Source: Acanthaster planci (taxonomy: Eukaryota). Taken from it: 64,000 nt of DNA. The notes below the pieces were generated by a model. That model did not search any database. It worked only from the letters and a program-made list of their open reading frames with translations, and was not told the origin of the DNA. The position numbers were made by a program, and so were the translations under genes. Below are positions 28,601 through 51,300 of this stretch, piece by piece; position 1 is the stretch's first letter, and each line of letters starts with the position of its first letter. The stretch is from NCBI RefSeq assembly GCF_001949145.1, contig NW_019091362.1:1867838-1931837 (forward strand), in the 5' to 3' direction.

Positions 28601-30105
28601 GCTAAAAAAACCATTAAAGAAAACCCAAATTGAAGAAAAAATTTCGACAAAATGAAACTTTTGCTTTTCATAATTCTCTCTTGAAGCTCGTGCCATTAGC
28701 CATCTAGGAGCATGCTGGACACAATCGGACGCTATTTGAAATGGGTAAATTTCACTGTAAAAGCCGCATAGTATAATTGTGATTTTGAAAAAGATTGACA
28801 CAACGACGGACAGCGGATCATACAAATGCGCCAAAACAATGGTTATCTCCGAATGGTAAATTTTGAGCAAAAACGAAAGATTTTACCCAAACCAAATATC
28901 TCCCTCCAGTTGGGCCCGCTAAACCTCAAATCTGCTGACTGCATCGACGGTTTCCCGCCACAACGTATGTTCATTATGAATTCCTTGCCCTCTTGCATCA
29001 TTCATTAAGTTATTTTATTATTGCTTGATAGGGATGAAGTTTTGTTTATGAGACCAATCTTTGCATTAGCTTCCCGGGGTCCAACCTCTGGGAATTTTCC
29101 TTTTTGCTTTCATTAGATAAAAATATGTGTAAAGATCCTACGAATGTATCTTGAAACTGAACTTGTCATGGTAACATCGCCACATAAGCTCTAGATTTGA
29201 CTTGTAAATTGTTCTTGGTAAGGACAATGGTTGAAAAGAACAGTCCTCATAACTTCCTTTCATGGTTTGAATATCACAATTTTGGCTTACCCAATAAGAA
29301 CATTGTACATCTAAATTTTACTGACATTTGATAAGTTCATTATAAATAACGACAATGTAAATATCCTCATCAAGTTCGAGAATGAAGTTTAAATATAAGT
29401 CAAGCATACCTCCCCCACTGAATAGATTTTACTGCAATGCCAAAATCTTCCACAAAGTAACTCTCTGACCCTAAACCTAAAAAACAAGGAAAAATACCAA
29501 TTACAATCTTTGTCACACCCTTTTCTCGTAGCATCCTTTAATGCAGGAAATACAACTCGTAAATGATATCTTGATGATGTGGAAATCTTTCCATTGCGCT
29601 GGTTGTTTTGTCTGGAGGGAATAAACGAAAGCCAAAATGTGATTTTTAGCAAATAAGCCCCCCAAATCTGTGTAAAACAAAGATATTTCGCTTTTGAAAG
29701 AGAATCTCTTGGCCAAGAAGGGGCAGGGGGCACGTAGTCCCCACATTTTCCACTCTAGGGAATGGCCCCCACTTTTGGACGTCCTATAATGGGGTGGGGC
29801 TTAATGGATCAGTCTTTTTAATGGCCAATGCCTGATGGTCTAACAACTGCCCCCACTTTGAAAATTGTTCTCTCGCTGCTGTATCAAACACGGCTGGTGT
29901 TGTTTAAGCATGACTGTTTATGTAGTACAGACTTTTTCAAAGCAGTCATTAAGGTATTATATGACTGTTTATTCCATTTCTGATGTGTGAAATATTTTTT
30001 TTTAAAAACTGGGAATAATTTCCTCGTTTGAAACGTTTATTGCAGCACACAAACTGAGTTCGATATCTTAACAATTGTATGGTCATATCACATGGCAACA
30101 CTTAC

Positions 30106-30386
30106 CTAATACGTCGTCCACTTGCCATGGCCTCTTGTTCCAATTGCTAACAGTCTCGACTGGCTAATCCAGCTATCCTCGCACTCAGCCACGACCTGCT
30201 GGACGCCCTCATTATCAAGCCCCATGATGAGTTTCTCACCGACAAGTTTCACCCACAGCTTTCGGTCCTCGGCAAGCCCTCGGCAGATAGACTGGTCGGC
30301 AGGCTCCACGAGGGTTTTACATTTCGTGGCTTCTTTGTCGTCGCACCTCTGGATCCGACAACCGGGATTCTTAGGACAGCCGAATT
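30106..30386 (-). CDS. Gene B last coding exon: divergent FAMeT-like domain C-terminal part and stop
   Basis: (E)FGCPKNPGCRIQRCDD...RKLWVKLVGEKLIMG...RLLAIGTRGHGKWTTY*; acceptor ttgcttccag; TAG followed directly by gtaagt. Confidence 0.8.
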
Positions 30387-33300
30387 CTGGAAGCAAATTC
30401 CACCACAGCGGCAAATTATGCAACTGAGAGCCTCCTTAAGATGACAAAAGATCTAGAGGCCCTGAAATTTGCCGGAAGGCCTTAACATTTATGGAACTCT
30501 GGACGTCTGCCTTATTGGCAGGGAACCGGTAGGATAGCAGTTGAGGGAATTGACAATACTCAATGCATGAGGTTATTATCACACCACTGTTAGACCGATG
30601 AAGCCTGAAGGATTTGGGACCATACATAGCGTTGCACTGGAGACACTGGTACAAAAGTTACCCTTGGAAACGGGAAAAAATCACCAGGAGAGTATAGTGC
30701 CAGCTTCAGGTTCTGGAAACAAAATGGCTTCTCATTTTGTTTATAGTGCAATGTAAAAACAGCCATTTGCTTTCTCCAAAAGCTTACTCAAACATATGTA
30801 AATTATGAATGTGCATGAATAGCAGAACACACAAAGCATGCAACAACCGGGGATTCAACTCTGTGTCACCCAGAGGGAGTTTGTGTGGTAAGAACTCTGG
30901 ATTTCTGTCTCCAGCGGCTGTACAAAGAACCAGATGTGTATTCCAGGCCATTAGACTGTTTGTTTTGCCTATGTTACTAGCCTTTTCATTAAAGAAGATA
31001 AAGTCTCACCTGCGATGATCTGTCCCTCTGCCTCATCACTTGACTGTATGGCCACCAGAGCAACTTCAGTGGAGGTCACTTGAAACTTGTAGTTCTTGTT
31101 TTCCACTCCCCCGAGGGGTATCCAGTTTGGGTCTGACGTAAAATTAAGGATGAGCGAGTTCCATTTGAATTTTGACAAACATTACGGTTGGACTTATAAG
31201 CCCACCAAAAGGAAGTCTATCAACATGATGTCCTCCTATTAGGCTTGGCCTACTGCCAATTTTTCAAAGTAATTACCTTTTTCAACATACGGCCTTACGC
31301 TTGCTTAGCAAAACCGTTAGGAACGATGGCTGCCGTAGAGGTAGGGTTCGACGTGCTTTCATTCAAACACATTTTCCTTCAAAACACGTTACCCGAAATT
31401 TTGTAAAGGAAAAACGTTGCTGTACACCACCCGGAGCTTTCACGATAAAAACAGATTTGGTAGATACAAAATTCCTGCGGATATCAAGAATTCTATAGAC
31501 GAAGTAAATCACTACAATAAAGTCCTCAAGATTCTGTGAGTTATTATTAAGAAACATCTAAGGATGAGTGAATGAAGGCTTACAGTGTATTTCCACCACT
31601 TGTTCCTCGATGTGCGTAACGGTGACAGATACATCGATGTATTTTGGCCTAAACAAGACGTCGGGAATCTTCCCTCTCAAAAGTTCGCTGGCTTCACCCT
31701 TGATACCAAATTCGAACCAGAACTCTTCACTGGTGCAGGCTGGTAGCTTGATCCAGAATGACTTTCTACCACTGTTGAGGATGCCGCTGCGGGTTGCCAC
31801 TTTCTCACCTAGGATCTGGCCGTCATACTGCATGTAACTCCACTCCTTCTCTATGACTGTGGCAGTTGCAAAATAGAATATCGACGGAATGTCAACAAGG
31901 ATGTCTTGGTTTGATTGGTCTTGGTTTGTCTAGTTCAGCTGAAACGTCAACTGCTAAAGAATACTGCTGGGTGTAAGTAAATGAGGAAATGATGCCAGCC
32001 CAATTCAAAACTCAAGCTGAAGCTAATAGCATATTTTGCTTTTTCTTCTTTGTTACCGTAAATACCTGCACCATAAATTGTTTGTTCATTTATCTTAAAT
32101 TTAACACAATAACTACTGATCTGAAATAAATTGGCGTAAAATGGTTTACTGACGACAATCATTGAAAAATAAATTACCACACTGTGATCAACAGAGGCAA
32201 GGATAGGTGCTTGTGTTTAATTCGCCTCCGTATTTATCGTTCTGGTATTGATATACTGGCTGGCAAAAAAATGAAATATTCAGTATCCAAATTGACATGT
32301 CAGGGCCACCGGTCCCTACATGATGGGATGGGGACCAGTCTAACCGTTGCTAAGGAAATAGTGCCCTCTTTTGGCCCAGCTCGAGGCCCATTGACGTTGT
32401 GCCGTACTCACTGTTGAACTGACTCTGCGTGATATCCTAACAAATTGTACACAGTTTAAGATTTCTTTTGAATGTAAAGTGAAACCACTGTGAGGCCCAT
32501 ACTCACCAAACGACAACGTCCTTCCCTTGTCCGAGCCCCTTTGCTCAGTCAAGCGGAATATTATGCCGTCCTCGGGGTCCAATGCAAAACTGACACTTGT
32601 CTCGTAGCCAGCAATTCCCTCAACCTCCTGGAACTGGCCCGGCTTTAAGGTGATTGTCTTCCTCTCTGTCTCTTCCTTGGTCTCTGAATGAGTAAAAACC
32701 CGACTGTGCCAAGTATTTCAGAGCGCTTTAGCCTCCATCCACGTGACGATAAAATTGATTGCGACCGATGGCCTTATTTAGAAATGTTTCTCACCTTTTA
32801 GATAAAGAGTTCTGGCTAATTCCCACCCTGAAGCCTATGTTTCAATGTGAAAATGAAATCGGCTATGTTTTTCTTCTACCCGTGTTGTTGGTAATTTGAT
32901 TCTCATAGATCAAGCTAAAGAAATGACAAAAAAACCTACCAATTATGATCTCTCTGCCGCCGCCATTGCCTACCGTTTGTTAAGAAAGAAGAGGAGAGAA
33001 AAATCATGAAGTGCCGCAAAAACTACAAAAGTCAAGTGAAGCTACATGCAATGATATTCGGCAGCAAGGACGACGTCCTTTTGTTTTAAGCCCAATCTTG
33101 TTAAAAGTGGGAAACTCCGAAAATGTCAACTCTGTTGTGTAAAATGTAAAAAATCATCTGTTCAGATACTAACCTTGAGATCCATTTTTCTTCTGGTGTT
33201 TCTTTCCTTTAATTAAAACAAAGCGACTTAATACGATAAAGTCTAAATTTGATGCACAGGGAATGATGATGCGCGTATCTGCCAAACTTTACATACTCTG

Positions 33301-36300
33301 CATCCCTAGTTGGATTTCAATTTTTATGTGAAATTGTCCAATAATCTGTTTTCCATTGAATTAATTCCTATCATAGCAGCATCAACTTTATCTTCTAAGA
33401 AGCTAACCTTTAGATTTCAGTTTCTTGTTGTGTTTCTTGCCTGGAACCAAAAACAGAAAAACGTGATACGGTAACATGTAGCTTAGTTATTTAACAGTCA
33501 ACGATGTGAAGTGTCCTTGTCTGCCTATATTGTTCAGCTTGAACAGTTTTATGAGAGACTTCCTGCTAGAAATATTAGAGTATGGAATATATTGTATTGA
33601 ATTTACAAGTGATCATCAATTATCAAAACAAACTTCTATCCATTTAAAATATTTGAAAATTTACAGTCAGGAAAGCCAGTTGTCTAAGACTTGACGGCCT
33701 AGATCCTTACTACTCTGATAAAAAATTAACACCCTTCCTATCCATGTGAAGGGAAGAATATCTTAGTCAAGACAGTTGATGAGAGAAAAACTGTAAGTCA
33801 GATTTGAAGCTTTGCATGGTGGAATTTACATGAGATATAGGCTTGCAGGTACACCATGGAATCAGGCCCATTTGAAACAGGAGTGATTCTTAGAAGAACC
33901 GGTAGGTGTTTTCTTGCCATTTCGGCAAGGACGCTTTGGCCATCCTCAGGAAAACTGTATAAACCCAACAGATGGTAAAGCAAAAAGCAAAGTTAAATTG
34001 AAAAGTTTTACCTTTTCCATTCCTGGAGATGGAAAACGAGAAGCTCCTCGATCTGCCACCTAAAAAATAAAAAAGATGTAGTACTCTTTAATTTTAGTTG
34101 CCTCGCCATTATGTCAACCAACATTTGTAACCGGATTTCAATTTTTATGTGAACTTGTCCAATAATTCGTTGTCAAAGGAATTAACCCCTATCATAGCAG
34201 CATCAGCTATATCTTCTCAGAAACTAACCTTTAGATTTCAGTTTCTTGTAGTGTTTCTTGCCTGGAACCAAAAATAGAAAAACGTGATACGGTAGTGTGT
34301 AGCTTAGTTATTTAACAGTCAGCGATGTTAGGTGCGTCTGTGTGAACATAATTTTTCTTGTCTTGAACAGTGTCATCAGAGACTTTCCGCTAGCATTATG
34401 AAAGTATGACAAATCCTGTATTCGATTTACAAGTGATCGTCAACTTTCAAAACATAAATTCTACCCACTACAAATATATGAAAATCTACAGTCAGGAAAG
34501 CCTTTTGTCTATAACCTTTCCAGTCTAAGACTTGACGTTGTAAATCATTTTGATGCAAAATTAACACCTTTCCTAAAAATGTGAAGGGAAGAATATCTTA
34601 GTCAAGACAGTTGATGAGTGAAAAACTGTAAGTCAGATTTGAAGCTTTNNNNNNNNNNNNNNNNNNNNNNNNNNNNNNNNNNNNNNNNNNNNNNNNNNNN
34701 NNNNNNNNNNNNNNNNNNNNNNNNNNNNNNNNNNNNNNNNNNNNNNNNNNNNNNNNNNNNNNNNNNNNNNNNGGAATCAGTCCCTTTGAAAAAGGTGTGG
34801 TTCTTAGAAGAACCGGTGGGTGTTGACTCCCCATTTCGGCTAGGATGCTCTGGCTGTCTTTGGGAAGACTGTATATACCCGAGAGATATTAAAGCAAAAG
34901 CAAAGTTAAATTCAAAAAGGTTTACCTTTTCCATTCGTGGAGATGGAAAACGAGAAGCTCCTCGATCTGCCACCTAAAAAATAAAAAAGATGTAGTACTC
35001 TTTAATTTTAGTTGCCTCGCCATTATGTCAACCAACATTTGAAATCGAATTTCAATTTTTATGTGAAAATGTTCAATAAACCGTTTTTCAATGAACTAAA
35101 CCCGTTCCTAGCAGCATAAGGTAAATCTTATAACAAACTAACCTTTAGATTTCAGTTTCTTGTTGTGTTTCTTGCCTGGAACCAAAAACAGAAAAACGTG
35201 AAACGGTAAAGTGTAGCTTTGTTGCTTAACAGTCAACGATGTTTAAGTGTGTCTGTGTGCTATTACTATCTTTTAGCTTGAAGAAATTCATCAGAGACTT
35301 TCCGCTAGAAATATTAGAGTATGGAAAATCTTGTATTCGATTTAGAAGTGATCGTCAATTATCAAAACACAAATTCTATCCACTAAAAATATATGAAAAT
35401 CTACAGTCAGGAAAGCCTTTTGTCTAACCTTTCCAGTCAGAAACTTGACGGTCTAGATCCTTACTACTTTGATACCAAATCAACACCCTTCCTATCTTTC
35501 TGCATGAGATTTAGGCTTTCGGGTACACCATGGAATCAGTCCTTTTGGAAGATGTGGTTCTTAAAAGAACCGGTGGGTGTTGACTTGCCATTTCGGCAAG
35601 GACGCTCTGGCCGTCCTTTGGAAAACTGTATATACCCAACAGGTGTAAGCAAAGTGAAATCGAAAAGATTTACCTTTTCCATTCCTGGAGATGGAAAACG
35701 AGAAGCTCCTCGATCTGCCACCTAAAAAATAAAAAAGATGTAGTACTCTTTGATTTTAGTTGCCTCGCCATTATGTCAACTAACATCTGAAATCGAATTT
35801 CAATTTTTATGTGAAATAGTCCAATAATCCACTTTCCAATGAAGTAATCCCGTTCCTAGCAGCATAAACTATATCTCATAACAAACTAACCTTTAGACTT
35901 GAGTTTCTTGAGGTGTTTCTTGCCTGGAAACAAAAAAACCAGAAAAACGTGATAGAGTAAAGTGTAGCTTTCTTGCTTAATAGTCAACGATGTTATGTGT
36001 GTTTGTTTGGCAATTTTTTTCAGCCTGAAAAGTTTCATCAGAGAATTTTTGCTAGCATTATGAAAGTGTAGCAAATCCTGTATTCGATTTACAAGTGATC
36101 ATCAATTATCAAAACATAAATTCTATCCACTACAATTATATGAAAATCTACAGTCAGTAAAGTTTTTTGTCCAAAACCTTTCCAGTCTAAGACTTGACGG
36201 TGTAAATCCTTTTGATACAAAATTAACACCCTTCCTATACATGTGAAGGGAAGAATATCTTAGTCAAGACAGTTAATGAGTGAAAAACGGTAAGTCAGAT

Positions 36301-39300
36301 TTGAATTTTGCATGGTGGAATTTACATGAGATATAGGCTTGCAAGTACACCATGGAATCAGTCCCTTTGAAAAAGGTGTGATTCTTAGAAGAACCGGTGG
36401 GTGTTGACTCCCCATTTCGGCAAGGATGCTCTGGCTGTCTTCGGGAAGACTGTATATACCCGACAGATATTAAAGCAAAAGCAAAGTTAAATTCAAAAAG
36501 GTTTACCTTTTCCATTCGTGGAGATGGAAAACGAGAAACTCCTCGATCTGCCAGCTAAAAAATGAAAAAGATGTAGTACTCTTTAATTTTAGGTGCCTCG
36601 CCATTATGTCAACCACCATTTGAAATCGAATTTCAATGTTTATGTGAAATGTTCAATAAACCGTTTTCCAATGAACTAAACCCGTTCCTAGCAGCATAAG
36701 GTAAATCTCATAACAAACTAACCTTTAGTTTTCAGTTTCTTGAGGTGTTTCTTGCCTGGAACCAAAAACAGAAAAACGTGATACGGTAAAGATTAGCTTT
36801 GTTGCTTAACAGTCAACGATGTTTAAGTGTGTCTGTATGCTAATAATATCTTTTAGCTTGAAGAGATTCATCAGAGACTTTCCGCTAGAAATATTAGAGT
36901 ATGGAAAATCTTGTATTCAATTTACAAGTGATCGTCAATTATCAAAACACAAACNNNNNNNNNNNNNNNNNNNNNNNNNNNNNNNNNNNNNNNNNNNNNN
37001 NNNNNNNNNNNNNNNNNNNNNNNNNNNNNNNNNNNNNNNNNNNNNNNNNNNNNNNNNNNNNNNNNNNNNNNNNNNNNNNNNNNNNNNNNNNNNNNNNNNN
37101 NNNNNNNNNNNNNNNNNNNNNNNNNNNNNNNNNNNNNNNNNNNNNNNNNNNNNNNNNNNNNNNNNNNNNNNNNNNNNNNNNNNNNNNNNNNNNNNNNNNN
37201 NNGATGCCAAATCAACACCCTTCCTATCTATTTACATGAGATTTAGGCTTTCGGGTACACCATGGAATCAGTCCCTTTGGAAGATGTGGTTCTTAGAAGA
37301 ACTGGTGGGTGTTGACTTACCATTTCGGCAAGGACGCTCCGGCCGTCCTCTGGCAAACTGTATATACTCAACAGATGTTAAAGCAAAAGCAAAGTTAAAT
37401 TGAAAAGGTTTACCTTTTCCATTCCTGGAGATGGAAAACGAGAAGCTCCTCGATCTGCCACCTAAAAATAAAAAAGATGTAGTACTCTTTAATTTTAGTT
37501 GCCTCGCCATTATGTCAACTAACATCTGAAATCGAATTTCAATTTTTATGTGAAATAGTCCAATAATCCAGTTTCCAATTAACTAATCCCGTTCCTAGCA
37601 GCATAAGCTATATCTCGTAACAAACTAACCTTTAGACTTGAGTTTCTTGAGGTGTTTCTTGCCTGGAAACAAAAAACAGAAAAACGTGATAGAGTAAAGT
37701 GTAGCTTTCTTGCTTAATAGTCAACGGTGTTAAGTGTGTTTGTCTGGCAATTGTTTCAGCTTGAAAAGTTTCATCAGAGAATTTCTGCTAACATTTTGAA
37801 AGTGTAGCAAATCCTGTATTCGATTTACAAGTGATCATCAATTATCAAAACATAAATCCTATCCACTACAATTATATGAAAATCTACAGTCAGGAAAGCC
37901 TTTTGTCCAAAACCTTTCCAGTCTAAGACTTGACGGTGTAAATCTTTTTGATACAAACTTAACACCCTTCCTATACATGTGAAGGGAAGAACATCTTAGT
38001 CAAGACAGTTGATGAGTGAAAAACTGTAAGTCAGATTTGAATTTTGCATGGTGGAATTTACATGAGATATAGGCTTGCAAGTACACCATGGAATCAGTCC
38101 CTTTGAAAAAGGTGTGATTCTTAGAAGAACCGGTGGGTGTTGACTCCCCATTTCGGCAAGGATGCTCTGGCTGTCTTCGGGAAGACTGTATATACCCGAC
38201 AGATATTAAAGCAAAAGCAAAGTTAAATTCAAAAAGGTTTACCTTTTCCATTCGTGGAGATGGAAAACGAGAAGCTCCTCGATCTGCCACCTAAAAAATA
38301 AAAAAGATGTAGTACTCTTTAATTTTAGGTGCCTTGCCATTATTTCAACCAACATTTGAAATCGAATTTCAATTTTTATGTGAAATAGTCCAATAATCCA
38401 GTTTCCAATGAACTAATCCCATTCCTAGCAGCATAAGCCAAATTTCATACCAAACTAACCTTTAGACTTGAGTTTCTTGTAGTGTTTCTTGCCTGGAACC
38501 AAAAAACAGAAAAACGTGATAGAGTAAAGTGTAGCTTTCTTGCTTAATAGTCAACGATGTTAAATATATTTGTCTGCCAATTGTTTCAGCTTGAAGAGTT
38601 TCATCAGAGACTTTCTGCTAGCATTATGAAACCATAGCCTGTATTCGATTTACAAGTGATCATCAATTATCAAAACATAAATTCTATCCACTACAAATAT
38701 ATGAAAATCTACACTCAGGAAAGCCTTTTGTCCAACCTTCTCAGTTTGAGACGTGCCAGCCTAGATCCTTTTTACTTGAATAGAAAAATACACCCTTCCA
38801 ATCCATTTGAAGTGAAAAATATCTTATTCAAAACAGTTAGCCTAAAAAGAGCAAAAATGTAGATACCCGACAAATATTAAGGCAAGAGGAAGGTTCAATA
38901 AAAAAATGTTTACCTTTTCTATTCTTGGAGATGGAAAAGGAGAAGCTGATCGATCGCGACTTGCCTGGTAAAAATTTTAAAAATGTAGTACTTTTAATTT
39001 TGTGAGCCCAAGTTCATGACAACTTATATTTTAAACTAGATTTGAATTCACATGTGTCACTGCCTTATTACCCATTTATTTATGAAGATTATTCCTCTAT
39101 AAACACCATTTGATTTATTTTCAAAGAAAGTAACTTGGATATTTCAGTTTCCTGTGGCATCTTTTTCCTGGAATCGAAAATAGAAAAAAGGCCTACGGTA
39201 AGTTATTAATTTGATGCACAGTGAATGATATTACATGTGTGGAGTTCCTCCTGATAAAGCTAAAAATTGAATTTTACAAATGTTTACGTATACGTCTCAG

Positions 39301-42300
39301 ATTTGACACTAATTGCTCTCTCTCTCAATGGGTTTCCTTACATACCTCTAGTCTTAGGCTTCTTTGGGCGTTTCTTTCCTTGAAAAGAAAAGGCAGTATT
39401 CAGAGTGAGAGATGGTCTTGTTTTGTTTGAATTTGATTTTGACTTTTAGCATGCAAGCTGGAACTTTTTCTAATTCATAAATAGTGTTTTGCCTATTTAC
39501 AAAACTAGTTTAGTTCCAGTGATGGATTTAAGAAATAGCTTGTTTCACTTAACGAAGCATGAATTCCGTCGATGCCTACATCTCTTCAGTTTAAAGTAAT
39601 GCAGTGGACAGTTGCTGCCAAACTATGTGCCCTAAGATGGTGAGAATGTCTTTAGACTCTATTTTGGACAAGCTGAAGTAATATAGCCAATATTTTTACT
39701 ATCAGTTATAGGGACTTTTAATATGAACTCATATTGAGAAACATTTCCACGATTTACTCTTTTCAGCGTCTTAATAGCGAGGAAAGTACCGCATTCACAC
39801 GCAACGTTCAGTCCGAAATAAGACAACGCGCCTAATACCCTAACTCTGCGAGTGACATTGGGCAACTTCTCAATCCATTGAAACTTGTGTTTCTCTTCGA
39901 CTGAATGATAATTACAGACTAATTTATGATTTTTGCACTGCCCGACGTACACTAAATTAAATAACTACAGACTATTTATTAAGCGCTTTTAACAATAATC
40001 AAATCGCTGCAAAAATAGGATACAAACAATAAAAGCATTTGATAATAAGACGAGCTTTGAGGCTAGGTTTATCAAATGAAAAGATGATTTTGTGCAAAGT
40101 CATGGAAAAGGCACTCATAACGAGAATCCTGTGTGATGAGGATCTTATTCCACTCTCTTGGGCCAGCAATGGAGAGTGCCTTAACACCTGTCGTTTTTAT
40201 GTTTATGGGTACATATAAAAGCAGGACTCATGGGTTGTAGACATAAAACCGTTTTCTACCTGATTGATATGGGATAAGTAAATCGGTTAGGTAAGAATTC
40301 ACTCCTGTGGATTACACCCACACAGGATGAATTTGAATTCAATGCGGGTTTCATTGGTCAGTTTGTGTAGCGGATGAATAAGAAGTGTGGTATATCAGTA
40401 GATTAGTCAATACTGAAGATCAGTTTAGCTGCAGGGTTCTGAAGATCGTGTGGCCTGTATCCCTCTCCTTAATTGATTGATATACCGTGTAATAAAAAGT
40501 TGCTGTAATTGAGGCAAAATGTGATTAAAGTGTCGATTGATAATGAAATTCTAACACAATTAAAATCGCGCAGGTGAATATTGATGTAACGCATTGTGAC
40601 AGTGACATAGTGGAGTGAATATCACACCAATATCTCTGAAAATGGATTATGGGGTTTGACTATGGACACTGTCCTAGTCAAAATTCCTGGTCAGATAGAG
40701 AAATGTTCAATTTTGTCGGCATTCAGTTGTAGCTTGTTAGCACACATCCAGAGGTTAATGTCCAATATACATGCTGAAATTTTGTCGAGCTTTGGAATCT
40801 CCAAGAAGCAAAAGTTCTTAGAGCTGCATGAAGTTATATACCATCGGCGTAAATGCGACAGTGAAGATGTCGATGCAGGATGATATCTGAAACCCGTTTG
40901 GCTTAGAAAGGCCCAAAACAACCAAGGGTTCATCCAAAAATACCTAGGAATACGAACTTTCACCGACATGGTGATTCAGACAATTTAAGAAATTTTCTCA
41001 TTGAATTTTGACAAGAATATCATACTGGATATCAAAATTTATTTAGGTTATCTACATCAAGATTTTTCTTTTTATCGGAGTGACGATGGCCTGAGACGAG
41101 TCAAGCAGGAATGTTCCTGTTGTCAGAGAGGATTTTAAAAACACTGTCATTTGCTCGTCTTGTAGGCATTGAATCTGGAAAACATGCACATAATTTTGCA
41201 GAGGAACAGTGATTTACTGCACAATTCCCTATTCGTCAAAAGATCTGAATTCTAACAATGGACGAACCATGTTTTCAGGAAGAAAGTCAAAAGAATTAGA
41301 TTGCTCAGTGCTATCAATGCCATACCAAATAGAAATCACGAACCTTTGTACTTCTTGATGGGTTTCCTGAAGCGCTTCTTTCCTGAGGGAAGATATAAGA
41401 CACAATCTTGGAAAGCGAATTAACAAATTTGGGAAGGTTTTTAGGAATACCTCTCGGTGACACTTGAACCAAGCTTCAAAATTAAGCAACAAGAAAATGG
41501 CACCACATCAAATGTTTACAAATTTTTTTAACTGAAATGAACATCATTCTGGGGAGATATGGTATTTCCAAACATAAGCACACCCACTTAGGTTCAAGTT
41601 TTAAGAATTTTACGAGGAAGCCATTTAAAAAAGAGTGTTTTGTTACGTAAGACCACACACAGAGACTCTGGTGGCTTTTTAGTGAGAGACAACAGTCCTC
41701 ATACTATTCAGATATATTTTTATTTAAATAAGAGCACATTTCCAATTTTTTATCTTTGCAAAATGTTGGATCCTGCTCTGTGAAGCAAACCCGTCTTTAT
41801 ACGCACACCATTAGCCGTACGGAAGCATGGAGGACACATGGGAGGTCGCTAATTGAAGTGGGTAAATTTGGAGCAAACACAGAAGCTTCTACCCAAACCA
41901 AATAGCGCCCTCCTATTGTGTCTGTCATGCTTCTAAAAGGCTCGTGCCAGTTATACGTGCATATTATGCTGCTATGAGTTTACTACGGAAGCTTACAAGG
42001 GCAGTTGCAAATTTCTTTCGAGTTACTGTATCGCTGCGGCGAGATACTCGCCGCAGCGAGATTGTAAGTAGAAAAAAATTCAAAGGGTCCTTGTAAGCTT
42101 CGTTAGTTTACATCGGCGATTGACACGGGCGTTAGTGTTCTTTTGACCTTGGGGAGTATCACAGAAACAATATCGAATATCGCGCGACTTTAATACTCAG
42201 GGCAATTCGAGGTACAGAATCTGTGGGAGAGATGTTACATAACAACTATAGACTTTTTCTTGGCGTGGTAAAGCCAGCAAACGTTTTCAGTAATCCACAG

Positions 42301-45300
42301 AGCATTTCATTTTCTACAGCTTGCTTCATGGGTCACCAAAATAGGGTAGTTTCACTTCACCACTCGAAGCCCTACATTTCTTTCTAATCTAGGTCTGCTT
42401 TTAATGGCTTTGGAAGACATAAAAGAATGACCGTACCTCGTTTGCCCAGTCTGAATCGTCCTGGAAAGAAGAGAAAAAAATTAAATTAACGAATGAATTA
42501 GCCTGCAATAAGACACGAACGGTTTTTGTTTCTGGTATACTGTAAATGGTCTAATGCAAACGTTCTAATAAGACACCTTAATTAATGAGGATCCCAGGCA
42601 ACAGTTTCTAACTTTTTGAAGAGAAGTTGAGGACATTGGTGCTTAATTCATATTAGGAAAAGAATTTCTCACAACTTTGGAAAGAATCCTGGCCCATCGG
42701 CTACCCCCAACACATTTCGTTTTTCTCAGCGTTTCGGAACTCAAAATGCGATCCGGCTTCTGTTGATGCTTGGTGGAGTGATTTGTTCTCAAGGGAGTGT
42801 AACCGATGGCACATGATATCATTATCGATGGGACTATAATTATGTGTTAGTTATAAAGAACACAGCAGATGTGTAACGGTTCAATATGGTACGTTATGGA
42901 ACCGTTGGCATTCATTTTGATGAAACCAGTTTGATATTATTGGAAACGCAATGAGAAAAATCTGTTCCCATAAATCTGCGCAACTTCTGTGGTGCTTTTT
43001 AATTTTTTTAAATCACGTTTAAATGAAGCCGCTTACGTTTCAGGTATTTCAGCCTGGATTTTCTCTTCCCTTTGGACAGAAATCCAATCGATTTGCACGT
43101 GAACGCCTTTCTGTCAGGCTTTCTGTACTCAACTATTGGCATGTCTTCTGACAAGGATTTAAGGAAGACGTTGAAGCCAGTGGTGACAAATCGTACGGTT
43201 ATCTGCACTGTTTTCAGTTGCCAAGCCCACTGCGGTAGCTGTGCATATTTCAGTTTCAATCCACGGGAGTTCAGGATGCATATATCTTTCTTCTCCACCT
43301 CTGAAATTGAACAGAAAGCAAAGTTTTGCAACTGATCCAAGTTGATATGCCCAAAGCTCTGTTAAACAGCCTATTTCAATTTACCACTAGGTTGGGGGGT
43401 TATATGTAAATCAGTGTACATTAAGCGTTTTGCTTTGCTGAGAAATGAAATCCTAGGATCCCTGAAATTACAATCTGGATTCAAAAGGAAAGATGGGACT
43501 GAAGAATTAACTTTACCTATTTTGATTAGCTTCCCACCGTCCGAATGGAAGATGACGTCGGAAGGGTCCTCCTTTTCAATCTCGAATTCCTGGGTGACAC
43601 TGGTGTCTACATCTTCGGTAACTGTCACCTCCTTGGTGTCACCAAAACATTCGACAATCTTCGGCTCTTCTATCTGCTCCTCCTCCTCGGGCTCTGGGTT
43701 ACCCAGTGATGAAAAGGAAAAGAGGCAAAATTGTAATCTTGAAGAAAAGGCTGTCCAATCAGTCAACAAACGCAGGCATGTGTGACCCCTTTTAGGGGGC
43801 ACCGGTAATGTGGAAATTCCTGATAAAGAAAGATTATTGTGATAACATTGAGCTTTAAATGAAGATGCTCCAACGCTCAGGTTATGCAGACACTAAACTG
43901 TTCGTCATAAATTTTAATTTTTTTCCAAACGCAAAAAATGTAAAGGAAAATGGGACAAAAACTCACCTGGCAAGCCCAGGTCAGGTAGCAGAGGATCTGG
44001 CAGTCCACTGTCATCGTCTGTGTTGCAATTTCATGCACAAATTATGCAAAATAAGTGTCGGAAGTGCGAGACAAATCAAAAGCAGCTTGAGTGAAAACTA
44101 ATCGATAGCAATTACTCCCTTCAGAAACCGATGCATCTCCAGCTTGATTCATGTTTAGCATTAACAAAAATTTACAAAACAAAAATTACCTTTGCAAGCA
44201 CAAATCTTGCATCCTTCATTATTGCTCGCGAATCCATTCTTACAACCAAGTCTGCAGAAAACTGGCTTGCAAGCTGCAGAAAGAAAACCAGAAGACAATA
44301 GCCTCTAATTTGAAACCCTTTATATTTGGACCTAACGAGACAGAATGACATTTAAAAAAAATAATATTCTACTCTACGACCTTGAGCTCTCTAGTACAGA
44401 GATTTTCCCTCGACCACTAATTTACATAAGTCGGCAGGCTAGTTTGCTTAGGCGTATAACCCACGACCTCCTCCAAAATACAGAGCCACATATTGAAAGT
44501 TGATTATAAAAAGGCAAAATCATCTGGAATTGTAAAGCATTTGTAAAGATACTCGCTGTTGATTTATATTAACTATAAACGCATGCCAATAAATCATTTT
44601 TTATAAAAAAGAAGCGTTTTCCTTTGCTGTTTCTCTTATCAATTGGAAACCAGTAAAATTGCTTTCCAGTTTGACGACATTAACTTTTGATTTATTGACA
44701 GAAGACAAATTTCTTTTGTTTCATTTACCAGTTGAAAAAGTATTTCGGTCTCCTCTGCACATTTGGTAGGGTTTCCTTGATAGAGGAATGAGTTCAGGTA
44801 AATGCTTATTGTTGATGTGGACAGGCCTCGCTTACAAATGCGTCAGCTATATTACATATTATTACAAATTTACATGTTTAACGAGCATCCTTTTAGTGAG
44901 GAATGAGCTCTGGAAGGGAAACTCGACTTATCAAGACCCTTGAATATTTTATACGAGGACGAAGAAATCTTACTAATGACAAGTCAACATCATGTGGCAA
45001 TATGTATCAAAGGTTGACAACCGATAATATTTTACCAAATGTCAGGATTATTCTTGTTTGATACATAATTTGTTTGGATGCGAAAACTTGATCTTTAATA
45101 AATATTTCGTAATGTCCCAGATGTCGATATGATCTTCCCGCCCCAGAATATTCAAGAGTCTCAACAAGTCAGATGACTCCTCTTGATCTCCGTAGCTGAA
45201 AGTTCCAATATTAAAGCTCCTTATAAAGCCTGAAAGAAAAGGGTCACGTTTCAAACTTCCGGAACCCTCACGACGCTCGCCTTTGGGAATTTACATGGGG

Positions 45301-48300
45301 CTGCCCAAAACATTTCGTGATTTTTGGAAGGATGATGTCTAAATGAAACCACCTTAAGAAACAATTGTCTCCGATTTTTTTTCGTAAATAATAATGGGGA
45401 AAGTCTACTGGATATCGGGAAAAAAAGGAATTTTTCGTAACGACCTTTCAATTCCGGCATTATTGTTTCTAGGTCTCATTCTTCATTCTGTGTATGTTTA
45501 TTACATAATGCACTTTTGTGAGAGCGAAAATGTGTAACATTAGTAGATTTAAATCCCTGCATCTTAATGCGTTCTACATCCAGTTGGACTTATGTCAATG
45601 TCAGCAATGGTCATATTAAACAAGAGAGTTTATCGTAAATGCAGATACTTTCTTCAAGTTTATTTCTTTCAGAGTTTCAACCCCCTCAATTTATTTTCTG
45701 TTCCTATATTCCTTTAAGATTTTACCTCAAAACTATACCGAGAAGAAATTTTCATAACTTTTCGTCTGCCTACGAGTGCAATATGTTGTATGTATTTTAG
45801 ACTTTCAGAAGTGAGAGGTCAGTTTTTGGTATTTCATATCTTTTTCTGGTCACGGAATTCGTTTGCTTTTTTAAAATTGATTTTTACCAGAATATATTTC
45901 ACAAAAGTCCCTTCCGTAGCGAACAAAGAAAAAACAATTTAAGTTTAAATTTGTTTGCACATTACATGTATTTGTCCTACTCAAAGGTTCCAGGGGTAAA
46001 CTTTCAGGTTGTAATACCGACAGCTGGTATAGCTGCATCAGTTTGCAGTAAGCCAAAGGGTTTGTATACTTACGTTCTCTGCAAACACGACCACAGCCAT
46101 TGGAGCAGCATTTCATCCTCCCGTCAGGACAACTCTCGTCATCTGAACACTCGTTAACACAAATTCCAACCACGGACGTTTTAGCTGACACCTCTGGACA
46201 TTCACCGAAACGCATGCGTGCTGGGACCGGAGGATAAACACACAGTTAAAAAAGAACAGAAAGCTCTCATGTCATTCCACAGAGTCCGATTAACTATGAT
46301 TTGAATGAGGAACAGCGGACCAGAATAAAAAAGATTACGTAGGGAGTCTGATTCTATCAAGGGAGTATTTTTAAGTGTAACACTAATNNNNNNNNNNNNN
46401 NNNNNNNNNNNNNNNNNNNNNNNNNNNNNNNNNNNNNNNNNNNNNNNNNNNNNNNNNNNNNNNNNNNNNNNNNNNNNNNNNNNNNNNNNNNNNNNNNNNN
46501 NNNNNNNNNNNNNNNNNNNNNNNNNNNNNNNNNNNNNNNNNNNNNNNNNNNNNNNNNNNNNNNNNNNNNNNNNNNNNNNNNNNNNNNNNNNNNNNNNNNN
46601 NNNNNNNNNNNNNNNNNNNNNNNNNNNNNNNNNNNNNNNNNNNNNNNNNNNNNNNNNNNNNNNNNNNNNNNNNNNNNNNNNNNNNNNNNNNNNNNNNNNN
46701 NNNNNNNNNNNNNNNNNNNNNNNNNNNNNNNNNNNNNNNNNNNNNNNNNNNNNNNNNNNNNNNNNNNNNNNNNNNNNNNNNNNNNNNNNNNNNNNNNNNN
46801 NNNNNNNNNNNNNNNNNNNNNNNNNNNNNNNNNNNNNNNNNNNNNNNNNNNNNNNNNNNNNNNNNNNNNNNNNNNNNNNNNNNNNNNNNNNNNNNNNNNN
46901 NNNNNNNNNNNNNNNNNNNNNNNNNNNNNNNNNNNNNNNNNNNNNNNNNNNNNNNNNNNNNNNNNNNNNNNNNNNNNNNNNNNNNNNNNNNNNNNNNNNN
47001 NNNNNNNNNNNNNNNNNNNNNNNNNNNNNNNNNNNNNNNNNNNNNNNNNNNNNNNNNNNNNNNNNNNNNNNNNNNNNNNNNNNNNNNNNNNNNNNNNNNN
47101 NNNNNNNNNNNNNNNNNNNNNNNNNNNNNNNNNNNNNNNNNNNNNNNNNNNNNNNNNNNNNNNNNNNNNNNNNNNNNNNNNNNNNNNNNNNNNTTATCAG
47201 TGGATCACCTACTAATTGCACTTATTCAGTTGCAATCCGAAAAGACGGGACTGTACTTCATTGCCTTCGATAATGGGATTCTTCTATGGCCACTAACATC
47301 TGTTCTGTGTGATTCACTCAAATTTGTGGCCAGCCAAAGCCAATTTTTCTGACAACGCACTAGAATCCCACAACCTGCCTGAATATTTCAAACAAAATAT
47401 ATTTGAAGCACATGTGATTTACTTCGGCGCACACGACGTTCGTGAGGGCATAGTAGTGGCTAGGGCTAGCCCGGATACCAGTCCCGACAAATCAAGGGTC
47501 CGGTATCACCAAATGTCACGTGTCCAGGACTGGACGAATTCCTCCAGTTTTCCGAAAATAGCCGAAATATTCCGGAGTCGCCCCGTCTACATTCTGCATG
47601 TTCGGATTGTACCGTTGATGTTCGGTTATTCCCGGTCTGGTTGGTGGGCTTGTTGAACATAAACCGTCAACAATCATGCATTGGCATTTAACAACAAAGT
47701 TACAAACAACTTTACTTGTTGATGGGTGTGTGCGAGGAAGGAATGTTGCTGTACAAGAAATGATCAACTAAAAGAATTTCGAAAATGCTTATGAATGATT
47801 TTGAGTTTTCTGATATTTGTTCAAGTGCGCATCATTAGGGAACTTCCGGCTGATTTGAACCCACCACGTATGAAGGGAATTAAATCGAAAACATCCAGGC
47901 TTTCAACTTGTGATCTCTGACCCTTGCGTCATATCTATTTATTTCTGCGGGTGATGGCTGATCCAAGATTCTTTATCATCCCAAGGGTCGTCAGGGAAAC
48001 TTTGGGCAGGGAACCAGACTACCTAGGGTCAGAAAGGTCGACATGACGTCATCATTGTAGCCTCTCAACCAATCAGAACGCTGGATTTAGCTCACATTCA
48101 GCCTCTTTAGCTCAATTTGAGGAGCCAGCCCGTACCATGCCTAGTATTGGTGTCCAATAAGTAAGGTGCGTACTCGTGATTAATTAAGTATTTTTTTATT
48201 TTTCTCTATAATTTTTATTTTTGAACTATATTCCTACAATACGAAGATGGCATGGAACGTGCAAATCAAACGATTTTTTATTGTAGGATTTATGTACTGG

Positions 48301-51300
48301 TATTTGTGTGTATAGCATTTCAAACAGAGGTGGCGGTTTCCATAAAAGTAAATAAACAAAGATTTGACGATAAACATTACAATTAGGGAATGCAAATACG
48401 ATACACATACAGTGAGAATTGGGTACGTGTACATGTACATGCATACCCAGGATAAATATAAAGGTGTTTTTGCAGTTATGGTTTTTAGAATAATTTGAAT
48501 TCCTGTTTCCTATTTTGCCAGTTGAGGAGAATCCCTTGATAGAAACTATATTTCTTTTGTGCAATCCAGCAGGAGCTGGTTAAATAACGTGTCCTTTATA
48601 TTTTGTTTCAAATGATTTAGTGATTTTTTGTGCATCGCATGTCTTTGCAAAGAACGTATCCAATAAAATGAAAAATATGAAATGAAACGTACCTACAACA
48701 CAAAAGTGGTACAACCCTAGCCTACATGTCCGAATTGTATGCTCAGCGGGCGATTCCATGACGTAACAAGGTGAGTCATCGATAGACGACAAACAACCGG
48801 GCACGTCCCGTGTCTGGTCATCCACTGATCAACCAGACTGAAATTTTGCGGGGTTTTCAAATAGTCGTGTTATGTGCCCTCTTAACCTGTTCTCATTGCG
48901 CCGTAAGTCCGATGCGTCGATTGAAAAGAGTTGAAACAGCACAGGACTGAAACGCGGCCGACAGATTCGGATTTCGAACGGATCAAACTGTCATCATGAA
49001 ATAAAAGCCTTTCATATTTTTTCTTACGTTTGCATATGCAAGTCATACATCCTCGTTCGTCCTTTTCGAAGCCGTTTGGGCAAGCTTTTCTGCACCTCAC
49101 CTTCGAACATGATACTATGGATAAAACAAAATGTTCAAAGAAGGGCAAACAGAAAAGGGACACATTCTCAACATCATAAAACTAGGAATGCGACTTACCA
49201 TTCCTCTTTTATACTCATCTCTTGAAAATTGTCATTAAATTTTGAATTAAGATACATGACTTGATCTATGTATTGAACAATCCTAATAAGGCAAATATCT
49301 TTTTGATAATTTCTGAGCCAGAACGCCATGATTACATAAGGTACGATTCCATGTCTACATCATCGCTTGTCACATGCCCATCATTTTTTTCACTCAATAA
49401 TCCAGCCTGTACATGTATTTATCATATATTTATACTGTCCATTCCCTGGTTGCTTTCCATGTGAATTACATGTACATGTTTAATTGTATTTTCTTTGATT
49501 GAGTGCTATGTTTTTGTGATAACTTAAGATTCTTGTTAATTTTAATGAATTACTTCTGAGTGATTCGGAGTAGTTTTGACATCTGCCATTGACAAGCCTT
49601 TGCTTATTAAGACCTTAGTCAATTACTTCTTCCTTCATAGGTTGTTTCTGTTTTATAAACATATCTGTATAATCCTCCTTTATTGTGCATACTAGATAGA
49701 TTGTGTTTTGTTTATGGTTGGATACAAATAAATGTTGCTACGAACAATGTTGGTTTCTGTCAGACACTGTACCATAGGGCTTGAATAAAACAGTTGATGG
49801 TAAGTTTCCTGCAACTAAATATAATTATGTGTGATTTCATTTTGTCTCTTGTTCACTTACCTTCTGGCTCAGTGCCACTTGGGTTATTTTCTGTATTCAT
49901 GCAAACAACCCCCCCCCCAAGTTTTCAGGTATAAAATATGTTCTTAGCAGCAAAGGCCGCTTCAAACTTACACGAAAGCAAAACGAATGTGACTTCACGA
50001 AATTCGTTGGGGATTTAATTTATGAAACCTTTCCAAATTTGCAGCACGAGTAATTGATCTTACACAGCAAAGGTTGCCTTTGTGTTCACTTTTGCACAAA
50101 GGTTGAACTGGTTTCAGAGCTTTGTCAAAGGATTTGAATAAAAGATGCTTTCAAACGGTAGCAAATGTTACCTCGTGCGTTTTGAAAGTGCAGTGGATGA
50201 AACATTAAAAGATTATGAACTTTAAACACCAAAGACTGAAATTTGGGGAACTGTTCAATTGCCACGGGAACAACTCAGCATCCCCCATATTTCGACACTT
50301 TTTCTATAAGAGCAGGCCTTAAACTCTCGACACATGCATAGTGTTCATTTTTTACTCACCTTCTTTCTCAGGGGGGAGAGAAATCACTTCAGGCTCTGTA
50401 AAATAATTTAAATAAGTGGCAATTGAGACGAAGGTGAATAATTGCAGTTTATGATTGTATTCCAGGGATGCGCAACCAAAGTAGGCCAAATGCGCCCAAC
50501 GCGACCAACGGATGCGGAATATAGGGTGCGTTCGATTAGCTTCCCTGAACACACCAATACACTCAAGGAAGCCTCAAAATGAGGCTTATCGAACGCTACA
50601 GTGTGTTTTCAAAGGCATTCTGGGAAAAAGGTCAAGTCCCCGCCTCGTTCCATCATGTACGTCCACGCTCGAACAGTCCATCCGTGACGTCATTACACTC
50701 GGGCAGCCTCCAGAGACCCGTTTGCCAGCTGGGGTAGTGGTGGCTGACACCAGGGCAGGCACGAACATCACGTGATGGCTAAACGAACGCTCCCGTGTAA
50801 GTTTGACTTCCACGCGTAAGCTAATCGAACGCACCCATAGAAAGGATCCAAAAGTCCATGAAATGACAGGCTTGACTGCTTTTTCTTGCGTTTGCTTTCG
50901 CAAGTTTGGCATCCGTTTTCGTTTATCTTAAAGCCGTTTGGACAATGCCTGCAGCGTACCAGCGGACATGCAACAATGGACGAAACAAAATTAACCGAAA
51001 AGATGGAAACACAGAAAAGTGACACACATTCTTAAGATTGTCAAAAGTAGGAATAGGACTTAACATTTTTCTTTTCAATAAATGTCTTCAAAATTGTTAC
51101 TAAATTGGAAAGTAAGATACGTGACACTGACAACTAGCTAGGCAAGAGTAATAAGGCTAAAAATCTTTCTATAATTTCTGAACCAGAACCAGTTGCTTAA
51201 GTAAAGCACGATTCCATGTCAACATTGTGGCTTATCACTATACCCGCCCAGGTTTTTCCATCAATAATTAAGCCTCTACATTTTGTATTCATTCATATAT

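What the first reader, a model, noticed from the sequence alone, without database searches (positions are those of the whole stretch)
33174..39167. A 'satellite' that is really a tandem microexon array encoding a cationic/amphipathic block repeat
Seen: each ~750-830 bp unit holds two minus-strand microexons (33 nt GKKH[NYL]KKLK[ST]K; 48 nt GGRSRSFSFSIS[RT]NGK). All 16 copies keep AG/GT ends, phase 1-1, triplet length and no stops. Among the core copies, indels fall only in introns and several exon changes are synonymous (CTG/CTC, AAA/AAG, AGC/AGT). Spliced into Gene B with exon 42437-42460, they give ~220 residues with no Asp/Glu and 9-10 Lys/Arg per 27-aa unit. About 90% of the array is intron, so ORF finders and repeat maskers would miss it. 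Inference: whole intron-exon units were amplified to build a low-complexity domain alternating a Lys-rich segment (Cardin-Weintraub-like basic clusters) with a strictly alternating polar/apolar beta-strand (SFSFSIS). Because all exons are symmetric, skipping could tune length and charge.
Basis: partly seen in the sequence, partly recalled or inferred. Interest (0 to 1): 0.92.

Follow-up and report, generated by a model that had tools for sequence, protein, structure and literature searches.

The report
Microexon array in starfish glue relative
In the crown-of-thorns starfish, a 6 kb tandem repeat is a run of tiny spliced exons that builds a strongly positive, acid-free protein stretch inside a relative of the sea star foot glue protein Sfp8, where it likely helps the glue grip negatively charged surfaces or sugars.

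Summary
The array is real and spliced. The window is Acanthaster planci LOC110991192. Six to seven intron-exon units carry 33-nt and 48-nt exons; one RNA-seq run shows 255 A-to-B and 266 B-to-A junction reads, plus junctions linking the array to upstream exons. It was not missed: RefSeq's 21 isoforms already contain these exons. Corrections: exon 39135-39167 is skipped; two further basic exons (39346-39378, 41344-41382) belong; the stretch is 232 residues, net +91, no Asp/Glu. Every relative has its own basic repeat at this position; only this one has the SFSFSIS strand. It has one FAMeT domain, not Sfp8's two, so I do not file it as Sfp8. Tube-foot expression is untested. Tuning by exon skipping is not shown: A and B alternate in all 18 RefSeq sequences, and reads point to array polymorphism. 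Best reading: a likely polycationic adhesive block grown by whole-unit duplication. New variant of a known kind; interest 0.5.

The parts
58004..58063 (-). First coding exon; Met and hydrophobic N-terminus, likely signal peptide (judged by eye, no predictor run)
   Evidence: tblastn of RefSeq X1 residues 1-20, 100%
54223..57622 (-). Four exons of the single N-terminal FAMeT domain (PF12248); span approximate
   Evidence: Pfam residues 36-164, E 2e-19; tblastn
53393..53506 (-). EGF-like exon (six Cys by eye; matches EGF repeats of the paralogue; no Pfam EGF hit in this protein)
50890..50973 (-). Unused duplicate of the antistasin exon: acceptor reads TG, donor reads GC; flanking intron DNA duplicated with it
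   Evidence: absent from the RefSeq sequences shown
44190..49114 (-). Antistasin exon (49028-49114), WAP exon (about 46074-46218), antistasin exon (44190-44273)
   Evidence: Pfam; tblastn
43037..44017 (-). Acidic linker (net -19, residues 327-404) and family-specific pre-tail domain (residues about 356-493); exons about 43965-44017, 43517-43700, 43037-43300
   Evidence: junction reads; profile match to Sfp7/Sfp8 loci, hhalign 97%; charge
42437..42460 (-). 24-nt basic microexon
   Evidence: 38 and 30 junction reads on its two sides in run X20
41344..41382 (-).
   Evidence: 30 and 15 junction reads; 18 of 18 RefSeq sequences
39346..39378 (-).
   Evidence: 15 and 10 junction reads; 18 of 18 RefSeq sequences
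39135..39167 (-). Diverged A-like copy that is skipped; likely pseudoexon or rare exon
   Evidence: zero depth in 4 of 4 runs, 10 skipping reads; 0 of 18 RefSeq sequences
38914..38964 (-). 51-nt B-like exon
   Evidence: 10 and 8 junction reads
33408..38492 (-). Core array. A exons: 38460-38492, 37630-37662, 36723-36755, 35891-35923, 35143-35175, 34229-34261, 33408-33440. B exons: 38243-38290, 37414-37461, 36507-36554, 35674-35721, 34926-34973, 34012-34059. Two N gaps inside (34649-34772, 36955-37202). Two-unit higher-order repeat.
   Evidence: 255 A-to-B and 266 B-to-A junction reads collapsed on one unit
33174..33206 (-). Diverged terminal A-like exon; present in 15 of 18 RefSeq sequences
   Evidence: not tested with reads
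32940..32969 (-). 30-nt exon closing the basic stretch
   Evidence: 18 of 18 RefSeq sequences; not tested with reads
30106..32683 (-). Four exons of the C-terminal region (32507-32683, about 31585-31857, 31011-31130, 30106-30396); 57% identical to Patiria miniata LOC119722862, last domain weakly similar to the C-terminus of the A. rubens Sfp8 locus model

Best explanation
The array is a run of spliced microexons that encodes a 232-residue, acid-free, net +91 block inside an Sfp8-related starfish protein, where it likely serves as the polycationic grip of a tube-foot adhesive. Shown: the exons are spliced in frame between a pre-tail domain and a C-terminal region; the protein's closest characterised relative is A. 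rubens Sfp8; all relatives examined carry a basic Ser/Gly-rich repeat after the same domain. Inferred: unequal crossing-over copied whole intron-A-intron-B units (latest step a two-unit block), and because every exon is phase 1-1 each gain or loss keeps the frame, so length varies mainly between alleles. Inferred: after secretion the Lys/Arg blocks would bind negatively charged mineral or biofilm surfaces and sulfated glycans of the footprint, and the Ser-Phe-Ser-Phe-Ser-Ile-Ser strands would add cohesion by beta-sheet or aromatic contacts once the charge is screened.
For: Splicing: run X20 gives CT..AC joints for 43036/42459 (38 reads), 42436/41381 (30), 41343/39377 (15), 39345/38963 (10), 38913/38491 (8), A-to-B (241+14) and B-to-A going back (186+80), with zero depth in most intron bins. 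The exon chain read off the window is found unchanged in RefSeq X1. Family: phmmer finds Sfp8 (UVH36224.1) at E 3e-67; the N-terminal FAMeT domains of three A. planci paralogues form a clade (95/89) sister to Sfp8's (94/95), then the Sfp7-like locus (89/82), among 22 rows; pre-tail domain profile against four A. rubens copies 97% probability, E 1.6e-11; C-terminal region against the Sfp8 locus model z=7.2, and last domain 62.6% against a shuffle maximum of 5.7%. Tails: K+R 39% here, 47%, 44%, 43% in the three valvatid relatives, 27% in Sfp8. Sfp7/8 are made only in AC2 cells and lie in the primer film (PMC9382459, passages). Heparin blocks adhesion in a flatworm whose cohesive protein is KR-rich, and is reported there to do so in a sea star (PMC6410801, passages). 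A. rubens footprints hold sulfated polymers (PMC6262867, passages). All Lys positions of the core exons are invariant at protein level; exon A pS 0.186 vs pN 0.060.
Against: No tube-foot expression or footprint peptide was seen: run labels are coded and three starfish supplements had no hit for the gene names. One FAMeT domain, where Sfp8 has two; paralogue LOC110991088 has two and is the better match at the N-terminus. The Sfp8 node is just under the tool's strong-support mark, and Sfp1, Sfp3, Sfp4a and Sfp5, which also carry FAMeT (Sfp3 also WAP and antistasin), were not in the tree. The single Sfp8 pre-tail copy alone scored 11.8%, no better than shuffles (maximum 15.8%). The SF-alternating strand is absent from the tails of all six relatives scanned, so it is not conserved. 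Exon B shows pS 0.029 vs pN 0.026 on three variable columns, no sign of selection by that test. Downstream junctions rest on RefSeq models only, and no DNA run was laid as a control.
Confidence: 0.62

Rival explanations
1. Same gene structure and ancestry, but this paralogue was redeployed to another secretion (body mucus, cuticle, spine or larval attachment) where the basic block binds sulfated glycans.
For: A. planci has three paralogues against one Sfp8; this one lost a FAMeT domain. Expression differed roughly 30-fold or more among three raw runs of unknown tissue.
Against: It alone of the three keeps a C-terminal domain like that of the Sfp8 locus model. No hit in two spine-secretion supplements, a weak test because they may use other gene names.
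Confidence: 0.18
2. The array is a polyprotein: convertases would cut at the Gly-Lys-Lys that opens each A exon and release short amidated cationic peptides that protect the secretion from microbes, alongside the WAP and antistasin domains.
For: 11 G-[KR]-[KR] sites lie in residues 494-725, one per unit. WAP and antistasin domains are discussed as antibacterial in PMC9382459 (passages).
Against: Each unit also has internal Lys-Lys pairs that would shred the peptide; the leading Gly is largely a product of phase-1 junctions ending in AG|G; relatives keep a basic tail but not this spacing.
Confidence: 0.1
3. The repeat is a tolerated expansion: symmetric exons in a disordered region multiply by unequal exchange, and neither copy number nor the Ser-Phe strand matters.
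For: Units are young (introns 3-18% apart), exon A is little more conserved than its neighbouring intron, 5 of 8 variable exon columns change the residue; each relative has a different repeat.
Against: Exon B has 3 variable columns in 48; only 2 of 641 intron windows of that length are as constant. Duplicated exons that fell out of use lost splice signals or inclusion (50890-50973, 39135-39167), while the core copies did not. Basic composition is kept across two sea star orders.
Confidence: 0.09
4. The region is an intronic satellite and the exon-like segments are not spliced.
For: Shared AG/GT ends and open frames are expected of any duplicated unit.
Against: Hundreds of spliced junction reads and near-empty introns in an RNA-Seq run; RefSeq models include the exons.
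Confidence: 0.01

Closest known systems
Sea star footprint protein 8, Sfp8 (Asterias rubens, UVH36224.1; locus LOC117291287), and the Sfp7-like locus LOC117291459
   Same: Hydrophobic N-terminus, N-terminal FAMeT of the same clade, WAP and antistasin, acidic linker, pre-tail domain, basic Ser/Gly-rich repeat; the RefSeq model of the Sfp8 locus also ends in a related C-terminal domain.
   Different: One FAMeT instead of two; 1 WAP and 2 antistasin instead of 4 and 5; one EGF-like module; tail more basic (39% vs 27% K+R), free of acids and with an Ser-Phe strand that Sfp8 lacks; expression site unknown. Exon structure of Sfp8 not examined.
A. planci LOC110991088 and LOC110973026, Patiria miniata LOC119723229 and LOC119722862 (uncharacterised)
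   Same: Same domain kit and pre-tail domain followed by Lys-rich repeats; LOC110991088 isoforms differ in steps of 10 and 20 residues in the tail.
   Different: Different repeat units, none with the Ser-Phe strand; their gene structures were not available to me.
Mlig-ap1 of the flatworm Macrostomum lignano (PMC6410801, passages)
   Same: Secreted temporary-adhesion protein with extremely Lys/Arg-rich regions beside folded domains; proposed target of polyanions.
   Different: KR regions total over 3,600 residues; cohesive rather than primer role; homology not tested and not expected.
Caddisfly H-fibroin (SX)nE blocks (PMC13267644, passages)
   Same: Ser-X alternation in a block-repeat underwater material; allelic variation in repeat number.
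   Different: No Glu and no S-x-E here; H-fibroin repeats lie in one exon after a single intron; phosphorylation untested here.
Schistosome micro-exon genes, MEGs (PMC4350168, passages)
   Same: Very small symmetrical exons in a secreted protein, exon duplication, many splice forms.
   Different: Here the basic microexons give 729 of 3057 coding nt in a multidomain protein, are near-identical tandem copies, and alternate strictly.
Tropoelastin gene (recalled, no call)
   Same: Alternating Lys-rich and apolar blocks, each on its own frame-preserving exon.
   Different: Unrelated protein; Lys there is cross-linked; resemblance from memory only.

Membership tests
Sfp8 / AC2 sea star footprint proteins | Signal peptide | tested here: inconclusive
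   Hydrophobic 19-residue start seen by eye; aligns with the Sfp8 N-terminus; no predictor run
Sfp8 / AC2 sea star footprint proteins | Two FAMeT domains | tested here: not met
   One PF12248 stretch here, two in Sfp8; the other domains did not match a FAMeT profile (at most 3.3%), although Atlas features put the pre-tail domain near FAMeT clusters at 0.90, a lead only
Sfp8 / AC2 sea star footprint proteins | WAP and antistasin repeats | tested here: met
   1 WAP, 2 antistasin
Sfp8 / AC2 sea star footprint proteins | N-terminal FAMeT groups with that of Sfp8 | tested here: met
   Support 94/95 among 22 rows; other A. rubens FAMeT Sfps were not in the set
Sfp8 / AC2 sea star footprint proteins | Pre-tail domain followed by a low-complexity basic region | tested here: met
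   97% profile-profile against four A. rubens copies; 11.8% against the Sfp8 copy alone; tail compositions
Sfp8 / AC2 sea star footprint proteins | Expression in AC2 cells and presence in footprints | not testable with these tools
   Run tissues are coded; no hit in three supplements
Schistosome micro-exon genes (MEG) | Most of the coding region in very small symmetrical exons | tested here: not met
   729 of 3057 coding nt lie in the basic microexons; the rest is mostly larger domain exons
Schistosome micro-exon genes (MEG) | Variation by skipping single microexons | tested here: inconclusive
   A/B alternate in 18 of 18 RefSeq sequences; exon 33174-33206 is left out in 3 of 18; no A-to-A or B-to-B joint listed
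Caddisfly H-fibroin (SX)nE block | (SX)n followed by Glu | tested here: not met
   7 (SX)n motifs but no Asp/Glu in residues 494-725
Caddisfly H-fibroin (SX)nE block | Phosphoserine and Ca2+ cross-linking | not testable with these tools
   Needs phosphoproteomics
Mlig-ap1-type KR adhesive | Long Lys/Arg-rich region in a secreted adhesive, sensitive to heparin | tested here: inconclusive
   Composition fits (91 K+R in 232); heparin sensitivity and adhesive role untested; homology not tested

The most novel reading that the evidence does not exclude
Valvatid sea stars build the surface-binding end of their primer glue from expandable microexon cassettes, and this one couples a heparin-sensitive polycation to an Ser-Phe beta-strand that assembles when polyanions screen its charge. 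It would be the molecular target of the old observation that heparin blocks sea star attachment, with glue charge set by unit number between alleles or by whole-unit splicing.
Probability: 0.22. Interest if true: 0.75.

Novelty: new variant of a known kind. Interest (0 to 1): 0.5.

Why it matters
How sea star primer proteins grip wet surfaces without DOPA is open; the Sfp catalogue paper could only point to predicted disorder in Sfp7 and Sfp8 (PMC9382459, passages). This gene gives a clean 27-residue unit, net +9 to +10, that can be synthesised and tested for surface binding, heparin sensitivity and sheet formation, and it shows that a basic repeat sits after the same domain in all the relatives examined from two sea star orders. 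It is also a clear case of a low-complexity domain grown exon pair by exon pair, with dead copies beside live ones. The exon structure itself is already in RefSeq, and microexon arrays are known elsewhere, which limits the surprise.

Tried and rejected
Tandem Repeats Finder missed the array because its period limit is 500. No whole genome was held. No Rfam match in 29000-45000. A single-sequence AlphaFold model of the 900-aa isoform was uninformative (mean pLDDT 33.6); no fold search was run on it and nothing is claimed from it. The word-indexed homologue search with residues 720-1019 found only the gene's own isoforms; the P. miniata relative came from phmmer. The AbrB-like Pfam hit on the array (15 bits, cut-off 25) is rejected as chance. 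Region 735-880 did not match the second pre-tail-like domain of the Sfp8 locus model (0.16%). Runs X17 and X21 had too few reads (0-5 per junction) to add more than presence; Logan contigs of X1 showed the A-to-B joint and exon 43037-43300 only. Reads at 40256-40287 and 41838-41942 come from dispersed repeats and were ignored. RefSeq's isoform ladder was rejected as proof of regulated skipping: 6 of the 16 shortened or altered sequences need no exon pair absent from the full form, 3 differ only by the terminal exon, and the 7 with new pairs could equally come from other alleles. Earlier-findings look-ups by place, words and sequence returned nothing. Not in print as far as searched: gene and protein names (0 papers), Sfp8 with sea star (1 paper, with 0 mentions of Acanthaster), microexon searches, Acanthaster adhesive searches. 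The supplements of PMC9382459 could not be read and may already note a basic tail in Sfp8; a 2019 cross-species paper on sea star adhesive proteins cited there was not in the listings and may name Acanthaster hits.


Full report
Observation. The minus strand of 33174-39167 holds seven 33-nt A exons and six 48-nt B exons in strict alternation, plus a 51-nt B-like and two diverged A-like segments; all 16 have AG and GT ends, triplet length and no stop in phase 1. Exons are 636 of 5994 nt. A-to-A spacing is 748-914 nt, and two units contain N gaps. The A-B intron is 168-169 nt in 6 of 6 units. Introns after B1 and B3 differ by 3%, after B2 and B4 by 6%, against 11-18% for other pairs, and B alternates Thr/Arg, so the latest step was most likely duplication of a two-unit block (inference). 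Exon columns vary less than intron columns (8 of 81 vs 200 of 735, p=0.0004, copies not independent), but the signal comes mostly from B; only 3 of 8 changes are silent. pS/pN is 0.186/0.060 for A and 0.029/0.026 for B.

The gene is annotated. Exon 43037-43300 hits Acanthaster planci LOC110991192 at 99%; 21 RefSeq isoforms, 18 distinct sequences, are on record. The chain of 21 exons from 43300 to 32507 translates to a stretch found unchanged in isoform X1. All 18 sequences contain array exons, none contains 39135-39167, all keep A/B alternation, and 3 omit 33174-33206. The basic stretch is residues 494-725: 67 Lys, 24 Arg, 43 Ser, 30 Gly, 16 Phe, no Asp or Glu.

Splicing. I laid 4 of 24 listed runs on 38200-44350, which holds one core unit so that reads from all copies collapse on it. 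Raw run X20 gave CT..AC joints along the chain 43036/42459 (38 reads), 42436/41381 (30), 41343/39377 (15), 39345/38963 (10, skipping 39135-39167), 38913/38491 (8), then A-to-B (255) and B back to A (186, plus 80 with an unplaced A variant between). X17 showed the same joints at 0-5 reads, X21 at 0-1. Array joints are 6.7-7.0 times the first flank joint and B depth is 12.7 times that of exon 43037-43300, so that animal's mRNA carries roughly 7 to 13 units; 3' bias was not measured. Reads include variants absent from the window (24 of 443 at 38253; 5 reads with a silent change in A) and 4 reads joining an Asn-type A to the Ala-start B, which in the window lies upstream of both Asn-type copies and so cannot arise by skipping. 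These point to allelic differences or extra copies. No A-to-A or B-to-B joint was among the 15 listed (3 not shown). The downstream junctions and a DNA control were not obtained with reads.

Identity. Pfam gives one FAMeT, one WAP and two antistasin domains. phmmer over 1.84 billion representatives ranked two A. planci paralogues on a scaffold of the same length, two Patiria miniata proteins and A. rubens Sfp8 among the top eight; two others there match only through WAP repeats. A search with the Sfp8 pre-tail region added A. rubens LOC117291459, which has FAMeT, EGF and HYR domains and the Sfp7 antibody peptide, so I read it as the Sfp7 locus. In a 22-row FAMeT tree the three A. planci N-terminal domains group (95/89), sister to Sfp8 (94/95), then LOC117291459 (89/82); long branches are flagged and the AC1 FAMeT proteins Sfp1, 3, 4a and 5 were not available. 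The domain before the tail matches four A. rubens copies as a profile (97%), though not the Sfp8 copy alone (11.8%); the last domain matches the C-terminus of the RefSeq model of the Sfp8 locus (62.6%, shuffles at most 5.7%; pairwise z=7.2). In every relative that domain is followed by a basic, Ser-rich repeat with its own unit (K+R 24-47%); none of six scanned has the Ser-Phe strand in its tail. A second FAMeT/antistasin/EGF gene appears to lie downstream in the window, and seven A. rubens Sfp entries map to chromosome 6 (PMC9382459 table). Because one defining feature of Sfp8, two FAMeT domains, is not met, I call this an Sfp8-related paralogue (likely co-orthologue), not Sfp8.

Mechanism. 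Shown: gene structure, splicing on the upstream side and within units, composition, relatedness. From papers: Sfp7/8 are AC2-specific and lie in the primer film (PMC9382459: passages and section 3.2; supplements unreadable; restated in PMC12817120, passages); Lys amines adsorb to negatively charged oxides and biofilms, and A. rubens footprints hold sulfated polymers (PMC6262867, passages); heparin blocks attachment through the KR-rich Mlig-ap1 in a flatworm and is cited as blocking a sea star (PMC6410801, passages). Inferred: the tail is a polycationic grip, with the Ser-Phe strand adding cohesion (0.62). Rivals: another secretion (0.18), a precursor of amidated cationic peptides cut at the 11 Gly-dibasic sites (0.10), neutral expansion (0.09), unspliced satellite (0.01). 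Regulated skipping as a tuning device I put at about 0.25; allelic copy number is the likelier source of length variation.

Comparison and novelty. Parallels are Mlig-ap1 (charge), caddisfly H-fibroin (Ser-X blocks and allelic repeat variation, but with Glu and phosphoserine; PMC13267644, passages), schistosome micro-exon genes (symmetrical tiny exons; PMC4350168, passages) and, from memory only, tropoelastin. The exons are in RefSeq under an uncharacterised name; ten literature searches, one main-text check (PMC7037938, 0 hits) and three supplement checks found no description of this gene, its array or its link to Sfp8. The library lacks most subscription papers. Verdict: real, a new variant of a known kind, interest 0.5.

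Noticed in passing
window 3535-15640, minus strand: A second gene of the same domain kit appears to lie downstream on the same strand: FAMeT-like exons near 15430-15640, 11922-12100 and 10304-10440, antistasin-like near 8691-8800 and 4897-5000, EGF-like near 3535-3650, and candidate microexons near 9934-9951 and 9227-9256. Suggests a footprint-protein gene cluster.
   Followed up: partly
window 49000-51500: An antistasin exon was duplicated with its flanking introns (offset about 1850 nt); the copy at 50890-50973 has lost its acceptor AG, has GC at the donor and lacks a Cys, so it is likely a dead exon made by the same process as the array.
   Followed up: yes
P0170 family (A. planci LOC110991088): RefSeq isoforms differ by 10- and 20-residue steps in a Lys-rich tail with a different unit, hinting at a separate microexon array in the paralogue.
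   Followed up: partly
P0179 vs P0025 (A. rubens Sfp8 locus): The RefSeq model of the Sfp8 locus (1677 aa) runs on past the published Sfp8 end (1367 aa) into a third basic repeat and two more domains, so the published protein may be a shorter form.
   Followed up: partly
P0024 and P0022 (Patiria miniata, contigs of the same length): LOC119722862 is only the C-terminal 221 residues, 57% identical to this gene's end; it may be the broken-off end of a gene whose model failed at a repeat array.
   Followed up: no
window 41838-42107 and 40256-40287: An inverted repeat at 41982-42107 beside a short dispersed repeat that draws reads from other transcripts; a second short repeat at 40256-40287 does the same. 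Likely small transposon remnants.
   Followed up: no
window 49943-50209 and 52678-52941: Two intron copies of a roughly 270-nt element, about 90% identical in its core.
   Followed up: no
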